A stretch of DNA of 32,000 bases from Candidatus Saccharimonadota bacterium (GTDB lineage: Bacteria; Pseudomonadota; Gammaproteobacteria; Burkholderiales; Burkholderiaceae). The notes below the pieces were generated by a model. It was given only the letters and a program-made list of their open reading frames with translations, ran no database searches and was not told the DNA's origin. Shown one piece after another: positions 1 to 29,746 of this stretch. The stretch lies in assembly GCA_000147015.1 (NCBI GenBank), contig CP002161.1, forward strand, positions 176,565-208,564, in the 5' to 3' direction. Within the stretch, counting starts at the first letter, position 1. Each line of letters opens with the position of its first letter. A program made the translations under genes and the position numbers.

Positions 1-472
1 TTTATGAAATAAAGTTTTTTTTTTTTAAACAAATAATAAATATATTAAAAAAAAAATATAAATTTAAAATATATTTTTTAAATTTTTATATATATAATTT
101 TTATAATAAATTATATAATATTTTTAAATTATTTTTTTTTATTAAAAATAAAAAAAAATATTTAAAAAAAATATTTATTTCAAATAAAAGAATAATTAAT
201 TTTATAAAAAAAAAAAATATATATAATTTATACTTTATTAAAAAAAAATATTTAAAAAATAAATATGAAAAATTATTATATAATATTTTAATTATAATAA
301 AAAAAAATATTTTTAAAAATAATATATATAAAATAAAAATTATATTTTTATACTATATATTGTTATCACAAATTATAAATATATTTTTTAATAAAATATT
401 AATTTTAAATAAAAATAAAATTAAATATAAAAATAGAATATTATTAATATATAAATCTTTTATAATATTAAA
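1..472. other. Non-coding, almost pure A+T spacer (window may start inside it)
   Basis: TAA/TAG are dense in all six frames even under table 4. Only about a dozen G/C bases are visible by eye. No protein similarity was recognised on either strand. Confidence 0.6.
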
Positions 473-1237
473 TTATAAATTTAATTTTTTTTCTAATAAA
501 TTTGTTAATTTTAAATAATTTTTTATAGATAAATCTTTAGCTTTAAAATTAAAATTTATATTTAAAAAATTAAAATTATTTAAATTAAATATTTTTTTCA
601 TAGAATTTTTAATAATTTTTTTTTTTTTAAAAAAAGAAATTTTTAATATTAAATTCAAAATACTTTTATTATAATATATATATTTTTTAGGTATCATTTT
701 TATAAAATAAGAATTTACTTTAGGAATTGGATAAAAATTTTTTTTAGAAATATTTAATAATATAATAATATTAAATTTTATTTGTGTTAAAATAGAAATT
801 TTACTAAATTTTTTATTGCCATAATTTGCATTTATTTTTTTTACAAATTCTTTTTGTAACATTACATATATATCTTTTATATTTTTATAAAATTTTATAA
901 AATATAATATTATCTTTTTTGATATATTATAAGGTAAATTACCTATAATTCTGAATTTTTTATTAAAAATTTTAATATTAAATTTTAATATATTATAATT
1001 AAATAAATTTATTTTATTTTTGTATTTAATTTTTAAATTTTTATATAGTTTTTTATCTATTTCTATTGCAAATAAAAATATTTTATATTTTATTAAATAT
1101 TTTGTTAAATTACCATTTCCAAAACCTATTTCTAATATAAAATCATTATTTTTTATATTTATTTTTTTTATTATTTTTTTTATTAAATTATTATTTATTA
1201 AAAATATTTGACTAAATTTATTTTTTTTAATTTTCAT
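473..1237 (-). CDS. rsmA: 16S rRNA (adenine1518/1519-N6)-dimethyltransferase RsmA/KsgA
   Basis: 254-aa ORF. FSQIFLIN...ILEIGFGNGNLT matches the KsgA GQNFL...EIGPGxGxLT SAM site. IIGNLPYNIS matches the GNLPYNIS motif. Ends in TAA at 473-475. Confidence 0.9.
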   Translation of the reverse strand: MKIKKNKFSQIFLINNNLIKKIIKKINIKNNDFILEIGFGNGNLTKYLIKYKIFLFAIEIDKKLYKNLKIKYKNKINLFNYNILKFNIKIFNKKFRIIGNLPYNISKKIILYFIKFYKNIKDIYVMLQKEFVKKINANYGNKKFSKISILTQIKFNIIILLNISKKNFYPIPKVNSYFIKMIPKKYIYYNKSILNLILKISFFKKKKIIKNSMKKIFNLNNFNFLNINFNFKAKDLSIKNYLKLTNLLEKKLNL

Positions 1238-5217: not shown

Positions 5218-6669
5218 TTATTTAAATAAAAAATTTAATTTAAAAATAGAAAAATTATAAAATATATTAAATTTTTTGTTAATTTTAAAATTATATTTAT
5301 AATTATAAAAATTATTTAAAAATAAATTATTATTTATATTTTTAATATTTCATAATTTTAAATATTTATTAATATTAAAATAATTTAATAAATATTTGTA
5401 ATAAAATAATATTGAATAATTTATATTATAATTATAGTTAAATATATTTATTACTAAAAGATTTAATTTATGAAAATAAAATTTATTATATATTTTTTTT
5501 TTTAAATATATATTTTTTGTTTTTTCTATAATAGTCTGAATATTATATTTTCAAGAAATTTTTATTAATTTAAATATTTTTTTTAATTCTAAATATTTTA
5601 ATTTATTTAAATTATAAAAATTATTTTTTTTAAATATATTTCCTAAAATTAAACTTACATTATATTTTTTAATTATTTTACAAATATTTTTAAATTTTTT
5701 AAATAAAAAAAATTCTTTATTATTTATAAAACATCATTTTAAAATTATAGAACCTTCTCTTGAAATATTATTATTATATTTCTTAATAAAATATGGAATA
5801 TATTTTAAAGTTAAACCAAAATAAAAAATGAAACAATCAATTCCATTAATTGATTGTTTTAATATTATTTTTTTAAATATTTTTCAATTTATTTTTTTTA
5901 TTTTTCAATTACATTTTTCTAAAGTTTCATAAATTGGTATAGTTACAATAGGTATATGATTATTTTTAATAATTAAATTTCTTATTTTTTTAATATTTTT
6001 ATTAAAATATAAAAAAATTATTAAATTATTATTTAATTTAATTGATATAATTAATTTTTCTAATTTTTTAAAAATATTATAATTTATATTATAATTTTGT
6101 ATATTAAAATTTATTTTAAATAAAAAATTTTTACCTATAATAATAGGTTGTATTTGATTATGATTAATATTACAAGGTATTATAGCTAAACCTTTATATA
6201 TTTTTTTTCTTATATATTCTGGATTTTTAATTAATATTTTTTTATTAGTAAAATTTTTTTTAATATTTATTATTTTTAATAAGTTTAAATATTTTATATA
6301 TTTTTTTTTATATATATTTTCTTTTATTGATATATATTCCATTTCACAACTTATAATTCCTAATTTAGCATAATAAATTTGCGTTATATTTTTTTTATAA
6401 TTAATATTTTTTCTGTTTAAAATTCAATTTTTTAATAATGGAGGTAAACCTAAATTAAAATTTATATTATAATCATTTTTAATGTAATATAATAAACTAT
6501 TATAAATATAAGGTATATAATTTTTTAAATTATAATTTAAAATTTTAATTATTGGAACATTTATATTATATAAATTTCCTTTTATATATCTTTTTATATA
6601 ACTAAAATTTTTAGATATTTTTTTTATTTTTTTTTTAAAATAAAAAATATCATTATTTATTAAAAACAT
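5218..6669 (-). CDS. thiC: ThiC-like protein (HMP-P synthase homolog); ORF intact, catalytic motifs eroded
   Basis: 483 codons were hand-checked as open under table 4, with TGA at 6424, 5905, 5884, 5725, 5551 and 5350. Clear ThiC colinearity: YYAKLGIISCEMEYISIKEN, GLAIIPCNINH, PIVTIPIYETLEK, GIDCFIFYFG, REGSIILKWC, YNVSLILG, ISWKYNIQTII. EGPGH is replaced by EKTKN (5512-5526). The last 100 codons (5221-5520) contain no Cys, so there is no CX2CX4C cluster motif. Confidence 0.75.
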
Positions 6670-9336: not shown

Positions 9337-10011
9337 TTAAATATTAATCTTTTTTATTTTTTTAATAAATATATTTAAAGATTTTTTAATAATTTTTTTT
9401 GGTTTTAAAATTCCATTTGTTTTTATATAAATTTTTAAATCTTCATATTTTTTTTTTATTATTTTTTTTTTAATTTTAAAAAAAAATTTTTTAACAGGTG
9501 TATAATTTGTATCTAAGTATATAACTATTTTTTTTTTTTCTTTATTATAATATTTAAATTTTTTTTTTTCATTATTATTAATATAACCCTTTCCTTTTTT
9601 AACTTTTATTAAAATATTTAATTTAGTTTTTATAATTGCATTAGCTATTAAATGACTAGGGTTTAAAATTTTAATATTTTTATTTAATGTTTTAATATTA
9701 TAAGCATATATTGGACCTAAAAAATAATTTTTTAAAAAAAAAGTAGTTTTATTATTTTTTATTTTAAATATTACATTTTTAATATTTAAAACAATATCAA
9801 TAATATCTTCTTTAATTCCTTTTATATATGAAATTTCATTTTTAATATTTTTAAATATTATTTTATAAACACAAAAACCTTTTATTTGATTTAAAGATAT
9901 TTTTTTAATAAAATTAGCAATAATATTTGCAATACCATTTTTTAAATTTTTTAAATAAAATAAAGAATAATTTATTCCTATTTTTTTTTCTATAAATTTA
10001 TTAATTTTCAT
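9337..10011 (-). CDS. rpoA: DNA-directed RNA polymerase alpha subunit, N-terminal domain only
   Basis: 224 aa. GIANIIANFIKKISL..., GIKEDIIDIVLNIKN and IKTNGILKPKKIIKKSLNIFIKK match the alpha NTD (cf [23 protein letters not shown]). A genuine TAA at 9337-9339 follows immediately. Position is between rpsD and rplQ. Confidence 0.85.
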   Translation of the reverse strand: MKINKFIEKKIGINYSLFYLKNLKNGIANIIANFIKKISLNQIKGFCVYKIIFKNIKNEISYIKGIKEDIIDIVLNIKNVIFKIKNNKTTFFLKNYFLGPIYAYNIKTLNKNIKILNPSHLIANAIIKTKLNILIKVKKGKGYINNNEKKKFKYYNKEKKKIVIYLDTNYTPVKKFFFKIKKKIIKKKYEDLKIYIKTNGILKPKKIIKKSLNIFIKKIKKINI

Positions 10012-10018
10012 AAAAATT

Positions 10019-10645
10019 TTATTTAGAAAAAAATTCTATAACAGAAAAAATATTAATTTTTTCATTTATATCTTTAATATTTGGTTTTCTTAAATAAATA
10101 CCTTCAAATTTTTTTATATTAACTTTAATTCAATTAGGAAAACCTATTTTTTTAAACAATTTTAAATAATTTTTAATATTATTTTTATTTTTAAATTTAT
10201 TTCTTAAAGTAACAATATCATTTTCTTTTAATAAATAAGAAGGAATATTAACTATAATGTTATTAACTTTTATAAATTTATGAGATACTATTTGTCTAGC
10301 TTCTGATCTTGTATTAGTAAATCCCATACGATAAACAATATTATCTAATCTAGATTCTAATAATTTTATAAAATTTTCTGCGGTATTACCCCTTTTTCTT
10401 ATTGATAAATTAAAATAATTTCTAAATTGTTTTTCTAAAATACCATAAATATATTTTATTTTTTGTTTTTCAAATAATTGTAATTTATAATTAGAAGAAT
10501 ATAAAAATGATTTTTTTTTAATATTAAATATTTTTTTTTTAAATATTTTTTTTTTATTTTTCTTTATTATTACAGAATTATTTAAAAATAATTCTGGTAT
10601 CCTTCTTCTATAAATTTTATTTTTTTTACCTATATATCTTGCCAT
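10019..10645 (-). CDS. rpsD: 30S ribosomal protein S4
   Basis: The track ORF 10130-10645 continues through TGA at 10130-10132 to TAA at 10019-10021. The tail FPNWIKVNIKKFEGIYLRKPNIKDINEKINIFSVIEFFSK matches the E. coli S4 C-terminus (...[24 protein letters not shown]...IVELYSK). Confidence 0.95.
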
Positions 10646-25387: not shown

Positions 25388-25577
25388 TTTTAATAATATT
25401 TTTTTTTATTAATTTTATTGCTTTAACTGATATTTTTATTTTTTTAATTTTATTTTTAATTTTTAATTTATATTTTTTAAAATTAACTAAAAATTTTTTT
25501 TTATTTTTTTTATTAGAGTGAGAAATCTTATTTCCAATTATTAATTTTTTTTTTGTTATTATACAAATATTTGACAT
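25368..25577 (-). CDS. rpmB: 50S ribosomal protein L28
   Basis: MSNICIITKKKLIIGNKISHSNKKNKKKFLVNF matches [33 protein letters not shown]. It ends in TAG at 25368-25370. Confidence 0.9.
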   Translation of the reverse strand: MSNICIITKKKLIIGNKISHSNKKNKKKFLVNFKKYKLKIKNKIKKIKISVKAIKLIKKNIIKNEKKKK

Positions 25578-25711
25578 TTATTTATTAAAATAATTTTTCA
25601 TTATTTTTATTATAAAATTTTTATTCTTATTTTTAATTAATTTTATTTTTTTTTCATTTATAATTATCATTTGAAATTTTAATCATTTTTTTCATATTTC
25701 TTGAAGAAGAA
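25578..25711. promoter_or_regulatory. Divergent intergenic region between rpmB and gyrA; the only non-coding space upstream of the 33-gene translation run
   Basis: This is positional logic only. It is the sole gap over 17 nt upstream of the run. A TATAAT is present on the minus strand (plus 25609-25614), 32 nt before the rpmB ATG, but such hexamers are ubiquitous at this composition. Part of the region (from 25664) may be gyrA coding sequence. Confidence 0.3.
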
Positions 25712-27247
25712 ATGAGTAATAGTTATATAAATTATGCAATAAATGTAATATCTAATAGAGCATTACCTGATATAATAGATGGTTTAAAACCAGTACATAG
25801 AAGAATATTATATACTATGTATAAAATAAAAAATAATTATAAAAATAATTTTATAAAATGTGCAAGAATTGTAGGAGAAGTAATGGGTAAATATCATCCT
25901 CATGGAGATAATTCTATATATGATGCTTTAGTAAGAATGGCTCAAAATTTTTCTTTAAAATATACATTAATTAAAGGACAAGGAAATTTTGGTTCTATAG
26001 ATGGAGATAATGCTGCTGCAATGAGATATACAGAATGTAAATTAAATAAAATATCCAATGAATTTTTTCATGATATAAATAAAAATACTGTTAAATTTAT
26101 AAATAATTATGATAATAAAGAAAAAGAACCATTAGTATTACCATGTAGAATACCCAATTTATTAATTAATGGTAGTTATGGAATAGCTGTAGGTATGTCA
26201 ACAAATATACCTCCACATAATTTTACAGATTCTATAAATACAGCTATATACTTATTATTATTTTCAGAATGTAAAATTAAAGATTTAATTAAAATTTTAA
26301 AAGCACCAGATTTTCCTACAGGAGGAAATATAATAAAAATATCAAAACTTCATAATGCATATTATTATGGAAAAGGAAGTGTTACAATAAATTCTAAATT
26401 TATTTTTGAAAAAATAAATAAAAAAACTAATATTATTATAACAGAAATACCTTATCAAATAAATAAAAAAAAAATATTAGAACAAATAATAAAATTAATA
26501 AAAAATAAAAAAATAAATTTTATTAATAATTTAAAAGATGAATCAAATAAATTAGGAATTAGAATAGTAATAGAATTAAAGAAAAATTTAAATAAAAATA
26601 AAATTTTAAAAATTTTATTTAAAAAAACTTCTTTACAACATACAATAAATATTAATATTATTGCCTTAATAAAAAATATTCCTAAAAAATTAAATTTAAA
26701 AAAAATATTAATATATTTTATAAAATATAGAAAAAAATTAATAATTAAAAAATTAAAATTTATATTAAAAAAATTAAAAAAAAAAAAATATTTATTAGAA
26801 GGTTTTGTAGTAGTAATAAATAATATAAATAAATTTATAAAAATAGTCAAAAAATCAAAAAATAATATTGAGGCTATAAAAAATATAACATCAAATAATT
26901 GAAAATTATTTATAAAATTAAAAATAATAAATTTTAATAAAAAAAATAAGAAATATATTAAAAATATAAAAAAGAAAATAAAAATACCTTATACAAAAAA
27001 ATACAAAATTTCAGTTATACAATCAAAATTAGTATTAAAATTAAGATTAAATAAAATAATAAAATTAGAAAGTTATAAAATTTTTAAAAAATATAAATTA
27101 ATAATAATTAAAATATTAATATATTTTATTATATTAAAAAAGAAAAATAAAATTTATGATGTAATATTTGAAGAATTAAATTATATAAAATATAATACAA
27201 AAATTAAAAATAAAGATATAAGATTAACAAATATAAATAAAAAATAA
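25712..27247 (+). CDS. gyrA: DNA gyrase subunit A, N-terminal (breakage-reunion plus coiled-coil) part only
   Basis: 511 codons were hand-checked as open, with TGA at 26900-26902. Motifs: SYINYAINVISNRALPDIIDGLKPVHRRILYTM, GKYHPHGDNSIYDALVRMAQ, GQGNFGSIDGDNAAAMRYTE (active-site Tyr). It ends ...IFEELNYIKYNTKIKNKDIRLTNINKK (cf VIREELELVREQFGDKRRTEI) followed by TAA at 27245-27247. The start may lie upstream at a non-ATG codon. Confidence 0.92.
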
Positions 27248-27366
27248 AATAATAAAAATTAAAATTCATATTAAAAAATTAAAAATATATAATTTTAAAA
27301 ATATAAATTAATAATTAATAAAATATTTACATATTAATATATAAAAATAATTTTCATATTTTTATA

Positions 27367-27392
27367 AGTAATACGATTTTATTCGTATTACT
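27367..27392. terminator. Stem-loop (10-bp stem, 6-nt loop) between convergent gyrA and metE
   Basis: AGTAATACGA (27367-27376) pairs perfectly with TCGTATTACT (27383-27392). The loop is TTTTAT. On the plus strand it is followed by ATTTTAATAAATTTTTT. There are three G:C pairs in an otherwise almost G/C-free spacer. The right arm overlaps the metE stop codon TAG (27391-27393). Confidence 0.5.
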
Positions 27393-29667
27393 ATTTTAAT
27401 AAATTTTTTCTAATAATTTTACATGCTATAACCATATTTTTTAAAGATTCAATTGTTTCTTTTCAATTTCTAGTTTTTAAACCACAATCTGGATTTATTC
27501 ATATTTTTTTATAATTTATAACTTTATATGTTTTTTTTATTAATTTTACAATATCTATAATATTAGGTATTTTAGGACTATGTATATCATAAATACCTGG
27601 GCCTATATCATTAGAATATTTAAATTTTTTAAAATTATTTAAAATATTCATATTTGAACGAGATGTTTCTATAGTTATAACATCAGCATTCATTTTTGAA
27701 ATATATTTTAATATATTATTAAATTTAGAATAACACATATGAGTATGAATCTGTATTTCATCTTCTATATTACCACAAGATATTTTAAAACATTTAACAG
27801 CAATTTTTAAATATTTTTTTCTCTCTCTTTTTTTAATAGGTAAACCTTCTTTAAAAGCAGGTTCATCAATTTGTATTATTTTAATTCCATTTTTTTTCAA
27901 ATCATAAACTTCTTTTTTTAAAGCAATAGACATTTGTATAGCAGTATATTTAATTTTTTGATCATTTCTTGTAAATGATCATTTAATCATAGTAATAGGA
28001 CCTGTTAACATTCCTTTAACAGGTTTTAAAGTTAAACTTTGTGAAAATTTAGAAATATTTTTTGTAATAGAATTAGGTCTATAAATATCTCCATATATAA
28101 TAGGTGGTTTCACACATCTTGTACCATAACTTTGCACCCAACCATTAGAAGTAAATTCAAACCCTCATAATTGTTCACCAAAATATTCTACCATATCGTT
28201 TCTTTCTGGTTCACCATGTACTAATACATCTAAATTTAATTTTTCTTGTAAATTTATATTTAATTTAATTTCATTTCTTATTTTATTTAAATAATTTAAA
28301 TAATTTATTTTTTTATTTTTAAATAAAAATCTTAAATTTCTTATTTCTTTTGTTTGTGGAAAAGATCCAATTAATGTAGTTGGAAATATAGGTAAATTAT
28401 ATTTTTTAAATTGTTTTTTTTTTCTATTTTTAAAACTAGAAAATCTATTATATTTTTTTTTTTTTATTATTTTAAATTCTTTTTCAACTAATTTATTTTT
28501 ATTTTTAAAAGATTTTTTTTTATTATTTATAGATATTAAATTTTTGTAAATATATTTATTAGATAATTTTATATTATTTTTTAAAAAGTCACTTATATAT
28601 TTAATTTCTTTTATTTTTTGTTTTGCAAAAGATAATCATTTTTTTATTTCATTATCAATTAAAAATTCATTTTTTAAATTTAAAGGAATATGTAAAAATG
28701 AACAACTTGAAGAAATTCATAAATTATTTTTATATTTAATACTTAATTTTTTTAATTTTAATATTTTTTTTATTATATTTGTTTTTCATATATTTCTACC
28801 ATTTATTATTCCTATAGAAATTATTTTTTTATTTGATCATATATTTAAAAATTTTCCAATATTTTTAAAATTATTATTTATAATATCTATATGTATTCCA
28901 TAAATAGGTAATTTTTTAATTAAATTATAATTTTTTAATTCTTCAAAATATGTTACTAATAAAATATTTATATTTATTTTTTTAAATTCTTTATATACTT
29001 TTTTAAAAGCAATTAATCATTCTTTTTTTAATTTTAAAGTTAAAATAGGTTCTTCAATTTGAATAATATTTATACCCTCTTTTTTTATTTTTAACAATAA
29101 TATTTTATAACCATTTATAATTTTTTTTAATAAAAATAACTTATTTTTTAAGTTTCCTTTTTTTTTTCCTAAATATAATAAAGTTAATGGACCTATAATT
29201 GTTACTTTTATATTTTTATATATTGATTTAGCTTTTCTTATATTATTTAATAATCAATTATATTTTCCATTTTTAAATTTAATATTTTTAGTTCATTCTG
29301 GTACTAAATAATGATAATTAGTATTAAATCATTTTGTCATTTCCATTGGTTTATTATTTTTATTACCTCTTGCCATTTGAAAATATTTTTTATAATTTAT
29401 ATTTTTAGTATTAAAATTAAATCTAGTTGGAATTGCACCTAATATTGTTAACATATTTAATACATGATCATATAAACAAAAATCTCCTACTGTAATATAC
29501 GAAATATTATAATAACTTTGTAAATTTCAATTTTTTAAACATATTTTATTAAATATATATTTTAAATCATTTTCGTTATATTTTTTATTTCAAAATGATT
29601 CAATTGCAAATTTAATTTCTCTATTTTCGCCAATTCTTGGCATTCCTATTATATGAGAAATTGACAT
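27391..29667 (-). CDS. metE: Cobalamin-independent methionine synthase MetE
   Basis: 758 codons were hand-checked as open under table 4, with many [29 protein letters not shown]..., [72 protein letters not shown] and [13 protein letters not shown]. Zn-ligand motifs are retained. The track shows only a 144-aa piece. Confidence 0.97.
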
Positions 29668-29746
29668 TAAATTAAATCTTTTATTATTCTTATTATCAAA
29701 TAAATTAAATTTAAGATATTTAAATAATTATAAATATTTAAAATAT

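What the first reader, a model, noticed from the sequence alone, without database searches (positions are those of the whole stretch)
25712..27247. GyrA stops at the end of the N-terminal domain; the DNA-wrapping C-terminal domain is absent
The ORF is 511 codons (hand-checked), whereas E. coli GyrA has 875 aa. It retains the winged-helix and active-site Tyr region (AAAMRYTE) and the tower and coiled-coil region. It ends at ...KNKDIRLTNINKK, which aligns to the ...GDKRRTEI boundary. A TAA at 27245-27247 and an almost G/C-free spacer follow. The beta-pinwheel CTD with the GyrA box is what lets gyrase wrap DNA and introduce negative supercoils. Enzymes lacking it behave as conventional relaxing and decatenating type II topoisomerases. 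If no CTD is encoded elsewhere, this organism may lack active negative supercoiling. That is notable for a genome whose extreme A+T content already lowers duplex stability.
Basis: partly seen in the sequence, partly recalled or inferred. Interest (0 to 1): 0.65.

Follow-up and report, generated by a model that had tools for sequence, protein, structure and literature searches.

The report
Gyrase A subunit missing DNA-wrapping domain
In the tiny genome of the spittlebug symbiont Zinderia insecticola, the gyrase A gene has cleanly lost the whole domain that lets gyrase wrap and negatively supercoil DNA but keeps an intact DNA-cutting core, so this bacterium probably has only a plain relaxing and untangling topoisomerase.

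Summary
The window comes from Candidatus Zinderia insecticola CARI (208,564-bp genome, about 14% G+C, UGA = Trp). ORF 25712-27247 encodes a 511-aa GyrA. Its one in-frame TGA falls on a Trp that is invariant in relatives. The protein covers the whole N-terminal cleavage core (Pfam PF00521, profile positions 1-431 of 432; catalytic R105-Y106). It ends four residues after the RRSEI-type junction, at about E. coli residue 524, which makes it a natural "GyrA59". No beta-pinwheel (PF03989) or GyrA box is present. Only 143 nt, with stops in every frame, separate it from the convergent metE gene. A second, independent assembly is 100% identical across the gene and spacer. The sister Zinderia from Aphrophora alni has an 836-aa GyrA with the CTD at the same syntenic position, so the domain was deleted in place. 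The retained core is conserved about as well as MetE. Other 0.2-Mb symbionts keep the CTD. One Nardonella strain shows an intermediate state, with an intact NTD and a frameshifted CTD. Not shown here: that no stand-alone CTD exists elsewhere in the genome (searched only partly), that gyrB is present, and what the enzyme actually does. This is a new natural variant of a known kind and is moderately interesting.

The parts
25712..27247 (+). gyrA, 511 codons plus TAA, encoding only the N-terminal cleavage-reunion core (WHD, tower, coiled coil, C-gate)
   Evidence: Code-4 translation. PF00521 residues 16-489, profile 1-431/432. GyrA models NF004043 and TIGR01063 match only their positions 10-479 of about 800. 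Aligns to E. coli GyrA 18-512. Same syntenic position as the 836-aa gyrA of the sister Zinderia.
26024..26029 (+). Codons for R105-Y106, the catalytic Arg-Tyr pair (E. coli R121-Y122) within AAAMRYTE
   Evidence: Pairwise map to E. coli GyrA. Invariant columns in alignments A1 and A2.
26900..26902 (+). In-frame TGA read as Trp397 under genetic code 4
   Evidence: W in all aligned relatives, equal to E. coli W415. TGA:TGG is 35:1 in six large ORFs. PMC2953269 reports UGA = Trp.
27221..27247 (+). End of the protein, R504-L-T-N-I-N-K-K-stop. RLTNI corresponds to the conserved RRSEI/RRTEI motif at the NTD/CTD junction.
   Evidence: Alignment A1. Sequence read directly.
27248..27366 (.). Non-coding spacer of 119 nt (0 G, 3 C). 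At most a remnant of the deleted CTD-coding DNA.
   Evidence: Stops in all frames. No CTD signal by HMM or tblastn.
27367..27392 (+). 10-bp hairpin followed by a T-rich tail, terminator-like, lying between the convergent gyrA and metE genes
   Evidence: The only terminator-like site in 25400-27600, against 0.0 expected from shuffles. Folding energy -16.5 kcal/mol for 27340-27400, z = -6.5.
27391..29727 (-). metE, the convergent neighbour that bounds the space available downstream of gyrA and anchors the synteny
   Evidence: Code-4 ORF. The Logan gene call carries Meth_synt_1 and Meth_synt_2. Same order gyrA-metE-metF-ubiA in the sister genome.

Best explanation
This is the orthologue of gyrA in Candidatus Zinderia insecticola CARI. 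About 325 codons encoding the six-bladed beta-pinwheel C-terminal domain, including the GyrA box, were deleted in place. What is left is a 511-aa protein equivalent to the laboratory fragment GyrA59. The remaining protein keeps the catalytic Arg-Tyr, the winged-helix DNA gate, the tower, the coiled coil and the C-gate, and it is still under purifying selection. Inferred: paired with GyrB, it forms an A2B2 enzyme that cannot wrap DNA in a positive node and so cannot introduce negative supercoils. Such an enzyme would act as a conventional ATP-dependent type IIA topoisomerase, relaxing positive and negative supercoils and decatenating daughter chromosomes. Those are the activities a 208-kb genome with no evident Topo IV still needs for replication. 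Shown here: the domain architecture, the boundary, the in-place loss, the sequence conservation and the independent sequence confirmation. Inferred: the GyrB partner, the enzymatic activity, and the lack of gyrase-driven negative supercoiling in the cell.
For: Architecture: only PF00521, full length, and no PF03989. GyrA equivalog models match only their N-terminal 60%. PDB alignments cover E. coli GyrA 18-512. Fold search returns only GyrA N-terminal-domain structures. It is GyrA rather than ParC: GyrA models score 579-591 bits against 419-438 for ParC models, and it occupies the gyrA position (rpmB ... gyrA, metE, metF, ubiA) of the sister genome, whose GyrA has 836 aa, five detectable PF03989 blades and a GyrA box QKKGGKG. 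No CTD in the window: a CTD HMM built from 60 relatives, searched against the six-frame code-4 translation, gives a best E of 0.12, and tblastn finds nothing. No CTD seen elsewhere: the sister CTD used as query found no protein on a 208,564-bp contig among its listed top 120 hits. Real sequence: an independent assembly is 100% identical. Constraint: 61% identity to the sister over the NTD (65% for residues 1-391), with crude dN/dS about 0.4-0.5, similar to MetE (57%, 0.49). At columns invariant in 21 free-living relatives, 82% are kept in the catalytic region 1-166. All other syntenic proteins have the same length in both Zinderia genomes. Biochemistry: removing the CTDs gives simple ATP-dependent relaxing topoisomerases (PMC8216471, citing Kampranis & Maxwell 1996). 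Parallel case: Nardonella of Metamasius keeps an intact 520-aa NTD ORF ending at the same junction, while its CTD is broken into at least four frame-shifted pieces.
Against: gyrB could not be checked for this genome. It is not in the window, the text of the papers available here does not list it, and no tool gave access to the other 176 kb. The search for a stand-alone CTD showed only the top 120 of 614 hits, so a strongly degenerate CTD ORF elsewhere could have been missed. Residues 331-511 are heavily eroded: only 29-44% of otherwise invariant positions are kept, and crude dN/dS is about 1 for residues 392-511. C-gate function is therefore not certain. dS is unreliable at 14% G+C. The AlphaFold model is poor for residues 1-166, which I attribute to a shallow alignment. 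No activity data exist.
Confidence: 0.7

Rival explanations
1. The NTD-only gyrA is a decaying relic with no function, a step on the way to the complete loss of gyrAB already seen in other tiny symbionts.
For: gyrA and gyrB are entirely lost in Sulcia-ALF and several Karelsulcia lineages (PMC3787670; PMC12016543). The coiled-coil and C-gate part of the CARI protein is strongly eroded, with crude dN/dS about 1 for residues 392-511. The presence of gyrB is unverified.
Against: The 1,536-nt frame is uninterrupted in a genome that deletes unused DNA precisely. All catalytic and DNA-gate motifs are intact, and 82% of invariant positions are kept in residues 1-166. Conservation equals that of MetE, which the symbiosis depends on. 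In Nardonella of Metamasius the NTD has no frameshift over 1,560 nt, while about 900 nt of CTD has at least three. That argues the NTD is selectively kept.
Confidence: 0.15
2. Gyrase is split. The beta-pinwheel is encoded as a separate ORF elsewhere in the 208-kb genome and works in trans or as a DNA-bending protein, so supercoiling may persist.
For: Only 32 kb of the 208 kb could be scanned directly. From my own memory, Borrelia burgdorferi naturally makes a stand-alone GyrA-CTD protein (Knight & Samuels 1999); this was not checked here.
Against: The sister CTD as query returned no hit on a 208,564-bp contig among its 120 best hits, although the CARI NTD ranked the sister's GyrA (P0003) third, after itself and a Profftella GyrA, in the reverse type of search. 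There is no CTD signal in the window. Gene relocation is very rare in these static, recombination-poor genomes, and synteny with the sister is otherwise exact.
Confidence: 0.07
3. The short gene is a sequencing or assembly artefact, such as a collapsed or deleted region or a false stop codon, and the real gene is full length.
For: The 2010 genome was hard to assemble because of its 13.5% G+C (PMC2953269).
Against: A Logan assembly of a much later SRA run is 100% identical over 6,203 bp covering gyrA, the spacer and metE. Only 143 nt lie between the stop codon and metE, so a point error cannot restore a 325-aa domain.
Confidence: 0.02
4. The enzyme still supercoils DNA without a CTD, through some substitute wrapping surface such as the very lysine-rich NTD or an accessory DNA-bending protein.
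For: The protein is 19% lysine. Nothing else supports this.
Against: In every gyrase tested, deleting the CTD or mutating the GyrA box abolishes supercoiling (PMC8216471). The lysine richness is a genome-wide effect of A+T bias.
Confidence: 0.03

Closest known systems
E. coli GyrA59 (engineered residues 1-523) with GyrB; Kampranis & Maxwell 1996, as summarised in PMC8216471
   Same: Same domain content and almost the same C-terminal end (about E. coli residue 524). Orthologous protein with catalytic R-Y, tower, coiled coil and C-gate.
   Different: GyrA59 is a laboratory truncation. The Zinderia protein is a natural gene product fixed in a lineage. It is 41% identical to E. coli GyrA, very K/N/I-rich, and its activity is untested.
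Full-length GyrA of Zinderia endosymbiont of Aphrophora alni (P0003, 836 aa) and of Profftella (P0002 and P0004, 866-869 aa)
   Same: Closest relatives (53-66% identity in the NTD). The Zinderia sister has the same genomic position.
   Different: They keep the beta-pinwheel with a GyrA box. The window protein lacks all of it.
Chlamydial ParC (Topo IV A subunit with zero CTD blades; PMC8216471)
   Same: A natural bacterial type IIA A subunit with no CTD.
   Different: It is a ParC paralogue that coexists with a complete gyrase. The window protein is the GyrA orthologue and probably belongs to the only type IIA enzyme in the cell. By sequence it does not fit the short-ParC model NF007208 (157 bits against a cut-off of 598).
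Aquifex aeolicus 'GyrA' (phylogenetically gyrase, functionally Topo IV; Tretter et al. 2010, via PMC8216471)
   Same: A GyrA-lineage protein in an organism thought to lack negative supercoiling by gyrase.
   Different: Aquifex keeps a CTD without a functional GyrA box. Zinderia has no CTD at all and is a mesophilic insect symbiont.
gyrA of Candidatus Nardonella dryophthoridicola from Metamasius (P0336, locus L007)
   Same: A tiny, A+T-rich insect-symbiont genome. An intact NTD ORF of 520 aa ends just after RLTKI at the same junction.
   Different: The CTD DNA is still there, with the GyrA box recognisable, but it is split by frameshifts into at least four pieces. In Zinderia it has been removed completely.
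Phage T4 topoisomerase II medium subunit gp52 (PDB 8yo3, 8ylu)
   Same: A CTD-less A-subunit homologue of an ATP-dependent relaxing type IIA enzyme.
   Different: Only distantly related (E 3.5e-28 against about 1e-126 for GyrA), and it is part of a three-subunit phage enzyme.

Membership tests
DNA gyrase subunit A (TIGR01063 / NF004043) | Winged-helix DNA gate with the catalytic Tyr (E. coli Y122) and the preceding Arg | tested here: met
   AAAMRYTE at residues 101-108. R105/Y106 match R121/Y122.
DNA gyrase subunit A (TIGR01063 / NF004043) | Complete cleavage-reunion core: tower, coiled coil and C-gate (PF00521 end to end) | tested here: met
   PF00521 profile positions 1-431 of 432, 460 bits. 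The model is confident for residues 167-403 and 428-508. Fold hits are GyrA NTD structures.
DNA gyrase subunit A (TIGR01063 / NF004043) | C-terminal six-bladed beta-pinwheel (PF03989 repeats) | tested here: not met
   No PF03989 match at E <= 1. The protein ends at the junction. No CTD coding in the window.
DNA gyrase subunit A (TIGR01063 / NF004043) | GyrA box Q(R/K)RGG(R/K)G | tested here: not met
   Absent. The motif lies in the missing region. It is present in the sister (QKKGGKG) and in Profftella.
DNA gyrase subunit A (TIGR01063 / NF004043) | Score above the curated equivalog cut-off | tested here: not met
   591 bits against a cut-off of 902 (NF004043) and 579 against 877 (TIGR01063). 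Only model positions 10-479 are matched.
DNA gyrase subunit A (TIGR01063 / NF004043) | Orthology to gyrA by descent (best hits and conserved position) | tested here: met
   Top hits are GyrA of Zinderia, Profftella and Oxalobacteraceae. The position matches the sister genome's gyrA.
DNA gyrase subunit A (TIGR01063 / NF004043) | Partner subunit GyrB encoded in the genome | not testable with these tools
   Not in the window.
DNA gyrase subunit A (TIGR01063 / NF004043) | ATP-dependent negative supercoiling activity | not testable with these tools
   Needs biochemistry. Predicted absent from the CTD-deletion literature (PMC8216471).
Topoisomerase IV subunit A (ParC; TIGR01062 / TIGR01061 / NF007208) | Better fit to ParC models than to GyrA models, and above their cut-offs | tested here: not met
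   parC_Gneg 419 bits (cut-off 629), parC_Gpos 438 (cut-off 813), short ParC model NF007208 157 (cut-off 598). All are below the GyrA scores.
CTD-less type IIA topoisomerase A subunits (an architectural class: GyrA59, chlamydial ParC, T4 gp52) | Complete cleavage core with no beta-pinwheel, encoded as a complete gene rather than a fragment | tested here: met
   The stop codon is followed by a non-coding spacer, a hairpin and a convergent gene, and is confirmed in an independent assembly.

The most novel reading that the evidence does not exclude
Zinderia insecticola CARI is a mesophilic cellular organism whose only type IIA topoisomerase descends from gyrase but can no longer supercoil DNA, so its chromosome is maintained without enzymatically introduced negative supercoiling. 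Shedding the CTD while keeping the cleavage core as a relaxase and decatenase would then be a recurrent, selectable step in extreme genome reduction, seen complete in Zinderia CARI and in progress in Nardonella of Metamasius.
Probability: 0.45. Interest if true: 0.6.

Novelty: new variant of a known kind. Interest (0 to 1): 0.45.

Why it matters
Gyrase is usually treated as universal and essential in bacteria. The 2021 review PMC8216471 names Aquifex as the only organism known to lack a functional gyrase. A natural GyrA orthologue cut at almost the same point as the laboratory GyrA59 construct, yet conserved at its active site, suggests something specific. In a 208-kb, 14% G+C symbiont genome, the indispensable job of the enzyme would be strand passage (relaxing replication-generated positive supercoils and decatenating chromosomes), not negative supercoiling. 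That gives topoisomerase researchers a natural experiment on what the CTD is for. It gives symbiosis researchers a clear case of erosion at the level of a domain rather than a whole gene, with an intermediate stage available in Nardonella. The finding is limited in three ways. Complete loss of gyrAB is already known in even smaller symbionts. The organism cannot be cultured. The physiological conclusion still depends on gyrB being present and on an assay.

Tried and rejected
1. The genome-contig scan for relatives returned only Firmicute and Mollicute loci, because the back-translated patterns were A+T-rich low-complexity words.
2. Looking for gyrB, topA or parCE of Zinderia CARI led nowhere. 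They are not in the window. Paper texts do not list them. No supplements are held. The McCutcheon & Moran 2012 review and Kampranis & Maxwell 1996 are not held. A GyrB query close enough to rank the CARI protein among the 120 listed hits was not obtainable.
3. The CTD query lists only 120 of 614 hits, so it is strong but not conclusive evidence against a stand-alone CTD.
4. The AlphaFold2 model is unreliable for residues 1-166, which I attribute to a shallow, low-diversity alignment. I used it only for the tower, coiled coil and C-gate.
5. dN/dS values are crude (Nei-Gojobori method with extreme composition bias). I treat them only as a comparison among genes at the same locus.
6. I tested the idea that extreme A+T content explains the CTD loss. 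In each clade the CTD-less lineage has the lowest G+C (14.1 against 18.3; 12.3 against 15.0 and 17.0). But a 15.0% G+C Nardonella locus keeps an intact CTD, and the trend is confounded with overall genome decay. This is not established.
7. I considered ParC identity and rejected it on model scores and synteny.
8. I considered frameshifting or read-through into a downstream CTD and rejected it. Only 143 nt are available and all frames contain stops.

Full report
**Origin of the window**

The window is about 14% G+C. Under table 11 the EF-G gene is broken into four ORFs and gyrA stops after 396 codons. Under table 4 (UGA = Trp), EF-G (701 aa), MetE (778 codons stop to stop) and a 511-codon gyrA are intact. 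Six large ORFs use TGA 35 times and TGG once. The window's GyrA (P0001) lies on a contig of 208,564 bp. That is exactly the genome size published for Candidatus Zinderia insecticola from the spittlebug Clastoptera arizonana, which has 13.5% G+C, UGA = Trp and 202 protein genes (PMC2953269; accession CP002161.1 per PMC4465658).

**Checking the observation**

ORF 25712-27247 is 1,536 nt, or 511 codons plus TAA.
- Its single in-frame TGA (26900) encodes W397. That column is Trp in all aligned relatives and corresponds to E. coli W415.
- Pfam finds one domain, PF00521, at residues 16-489, covering profile positions 1-431 of 432 (E 7.9e-138). There is no PF03989.
- The NCBIfam GyrA equivalogs match only their positions 10-479 of about 800. 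They score 579-591 bits, below their cut-offs of 877-902, as expected for a protein lacking 40% of the family's length. ParC models score lower, at 419-438.
- PDB sequence search aligns the protein to E. coli GyrA 18-512. A fold search with the predicted model returns only GyrA N-terminal-domain structures.
- R105-Y106 are the catalytic R121-Y122.
- In the multiple alignment, the tail KNKDIRLTNINKK lies on NKDVRRSEITHN, or GDKRRTEITAN in E. coli. The chain therefore ends at about E. coli residue 524, almost exactly where the classical GyrA59 fragment ends.

Downstream there are 119 nt with 0 G and 3 C. These are followed by a 10-bp hairpin with a T-rich tail (27367-27392). It is the only terminator-like site in the region, with 0.0 expected from shuffles and a folding z-score of -6.5. 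The hairpin abuts the stop codon of the convergent metE gene. All three frames of the 143-nt gap contain stops. A Logan assembly of SRA run SRR29904085 is 100% identical over 6,203 bp spanning rpmG to ubiA.

**What happened**

The closest named relative is GyrA of the Zinderia endosymbiont of Aphrophora alni (336,619-bp genome). It has 836 aa, five detectable PF03989 blades and a GyrA box QKKGGKG.

Its locus has the same gene order: S7, S12, L33, L28, three extra genes, then gyrA(+), metE(-), metF(-), ubiA(+) ... L19. The window has the same order. All other syntenic proteins have essentially the same length in the two genomes, while GyrA alone is 325 aa shorter. The CTD was therefore removed in place in the CARI lineage after the two Zinderia lineages split.

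No remnant can be detected. A CTD HMM built from 60 full-length relatives, searched against the six-frame code-4 translation of all 32 kb, gives a best E of 0.12, and tblastn finds nothing.

**Is the CTD encoded elsewhere?**

The sister's CTD (322 aa), used as a query against the 5.8-billion-protein collection, returned 614 hits. None of the 120 listed lies on a 208,564-bp contig. In the converse type of search, the CARI NTD ranked the sister's GyrA (P0003) third, after itself and a Profftella GyrA. So a CARI CTD of ordinary divergence should have been listed. A very degenerate one could have been missed. The other 176 kb of the genome could not be read with the tools, so this remains the main gap.

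**Is the remaining gene functional?**

The NTD is 61% identical to the sister (65% for residues 1-391), with a crude dN/dS of 0.4-0.5. For comparison, MetE is 57% and 0.49, EF-G 68%, MetF 41% and UbiA 45%.

At columns invariant among 21 free-living relatives, CARI keeps:
- 82% in the catalytic region 1-166
- 59% in the tower
- 29% in the first coiled-coil helix
- 44% in residues 392-511

The sister shows the same gradient at 89, 73, 55 and 51%. The active-site half is thus clearly constrained, and the coiled-coil and C-gate half is strongly eroded. The AlphaFold model is confident for residues 167-403 and 428-508 and poor for 1-166, which I attribute to a shallow alignment. I conclude the gene is maintained, not a pseudogene. 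The integrity of the C-gate is less certain.

**How it most likely works**

Deleting the CTDs turns gyrase into a simple topoisomerase that relaxes DNA with ATP, without preference for the sign of the supercoils. Mutating the GyrA box alone abolishes wrapping and supercoiling (review PMC8216471, citing Kampranis & Maxwell 1996 and others).

The inference is that Zinderia CARI GyrA(511) with GyrB is a Topo II/IV-like relaxase and decatenase, and that the cell lacks gyrase-driven negative supercoiling. gyrB is not in the window and could not be verified. My own unverified recollection of published gene-content tables is that Zinderia is scored as retaining both gyrA and gyrB.

**Comparison with other reduced genomes**

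An exhaustive phmmer search of 1.84 billion cluster representatives found 22,116 relatives. Among the best 150, only two proteins of NTD-only length cover the whole query.

- P0336 (520 aa) is GyrA of Candidatus Nardonella dryophthoridicola from the weevil Metamasius. At its locus (L007, 12.3% G+C) the NTD ORF is intact and stops at an A10 run just after RLTKI. The CTD continues in other frames, with the GyrA box QKRGGRG still readable, and is split into at least four pieces. Neighbouring genes (mrcB, tyrS) are also fragmented relative to other Nardonella strains. This looks like the intermediate stage of the same process, although homopolymer errors or transcriptional slippage were not excluded.
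- P0318 (521 aa) sits among phage-like genes on a 100-kb metagenomic contig, with no CTD in the following 1.9 kb.

All other Nardonella (200-230-kb genomes, 828-838 aa), many Buchnera, Wigglesworthia, Annandia, Purcelliella and others keep PF03989. Loss of the CTD is therefore rare even at about 0.2 Mb.

At the other extreme, several Sulcia/Karelsulcia lineages have lost gyrA and gyrB completely (PMC3787670; PMC12016543). Natural CTD-less ParC exists in Chlamydia (PMC8216471), but there it coexists with a full gyrase.

**The A+T idea**

In each clade the CTD-less lineage has the lowest local G+C: 14.1 against 18.3% in Zinderia, and 12.3 against 15.0 and 17.0% in Nardonella. However, a 15.0% G+C locus keeps an intact CTD, and G+C is confounded with general decay. 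The link is possible but unsupported.

**Literature**

The searches available here found no mention of a truncated GyrA in Zinderia.

**Verdict**

The finding is real and correctly interpreted at the structural level. It is a natural, in-place domain deletion that turns a GyrA orthologue into a GyrA59-like protein, which is a new variant of a known kind. The physiological corollary, that there is no negative supercoiling, is plausible but unproven. Interest is moderate (0.45).

Noticed in passing
window 9337-10035 (-): rpoA encodes only about 224 aa. Pfam finds the alpha N-terminal domains (PF01193, PF01000) but no alpha-CTD (PF03118). This is a second protein in the window that has lost a C-terminal DNA-binding domain.
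   Followed up: partly
Only PF00133 and the anticodon-binding domain are detected, which suggests the C-terminal coiled-coil extension is missing.
   Followed up: no
window 5218-6669 (-): A 483-aa ThiC-like ORF matches only profile positions 1-263 of 420 of PF01964. It may be a degenerate or truncated thiC in a genome said to lack vitamin cofactor synthesis (PMC2953269).
   Followed up: no
window 25664-25711 (+): The 16 in-frame codons upstream of the gyrA ATG (LSFEILIIFFIFLEEE) still resemble the N-terminal segment of relatives (...ISL/LLEEEM), but no ATG precedes them and a TAA lies at 25661. Either the start shifted to the conserved internal Met, losing about 16 N-terminal residues, or a non-ATG start codon is used.
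   Followed up: partly
window 27367-27392: A 10-bp hairpin (AGTAATACGA/TCGTATTACT) lies between the convergent gyrA and metE genes. It holds five of the eight G/C bases in the 143-nt gap and is terminator-like. The sister genome has a different hairpin (AATGAATT/AATTCATT) at the same place.
   Followed up: partly
L007 6001-8450 (Nardonella endosymbiont of Metamasius, JAKMAI010000001.1): gyrA is split at the NTD/CTD junction by an A10 run, and the CTD is broken into at least four pieces in two frames. Neighbouring mrcB and tyrS are also fragmented, and mreB and ssb are missing compared with L009 and L010.
   Followed up: partly
L008 6001-9500 (ENA contig ctg493363, 100 kb, 33% G+C): A 521-aa GyrA-like protein, 43% identical to the window protein and covering the full NTD, sits among phage-like genes (T7-type kinase, N6/N4 methyltransferases). 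It is followed by about 1.9 kb with no called genes and no CTD signal, so it may be a phage-encoded CTD-less GyrA homologue.
   Followed up: partly
window 3-518 (+): A 171-codon open frame at the window edge has no Pfam match. It may be a fast-evolving orphan or non-coding A+T-rich sequence.
   Followed up: no
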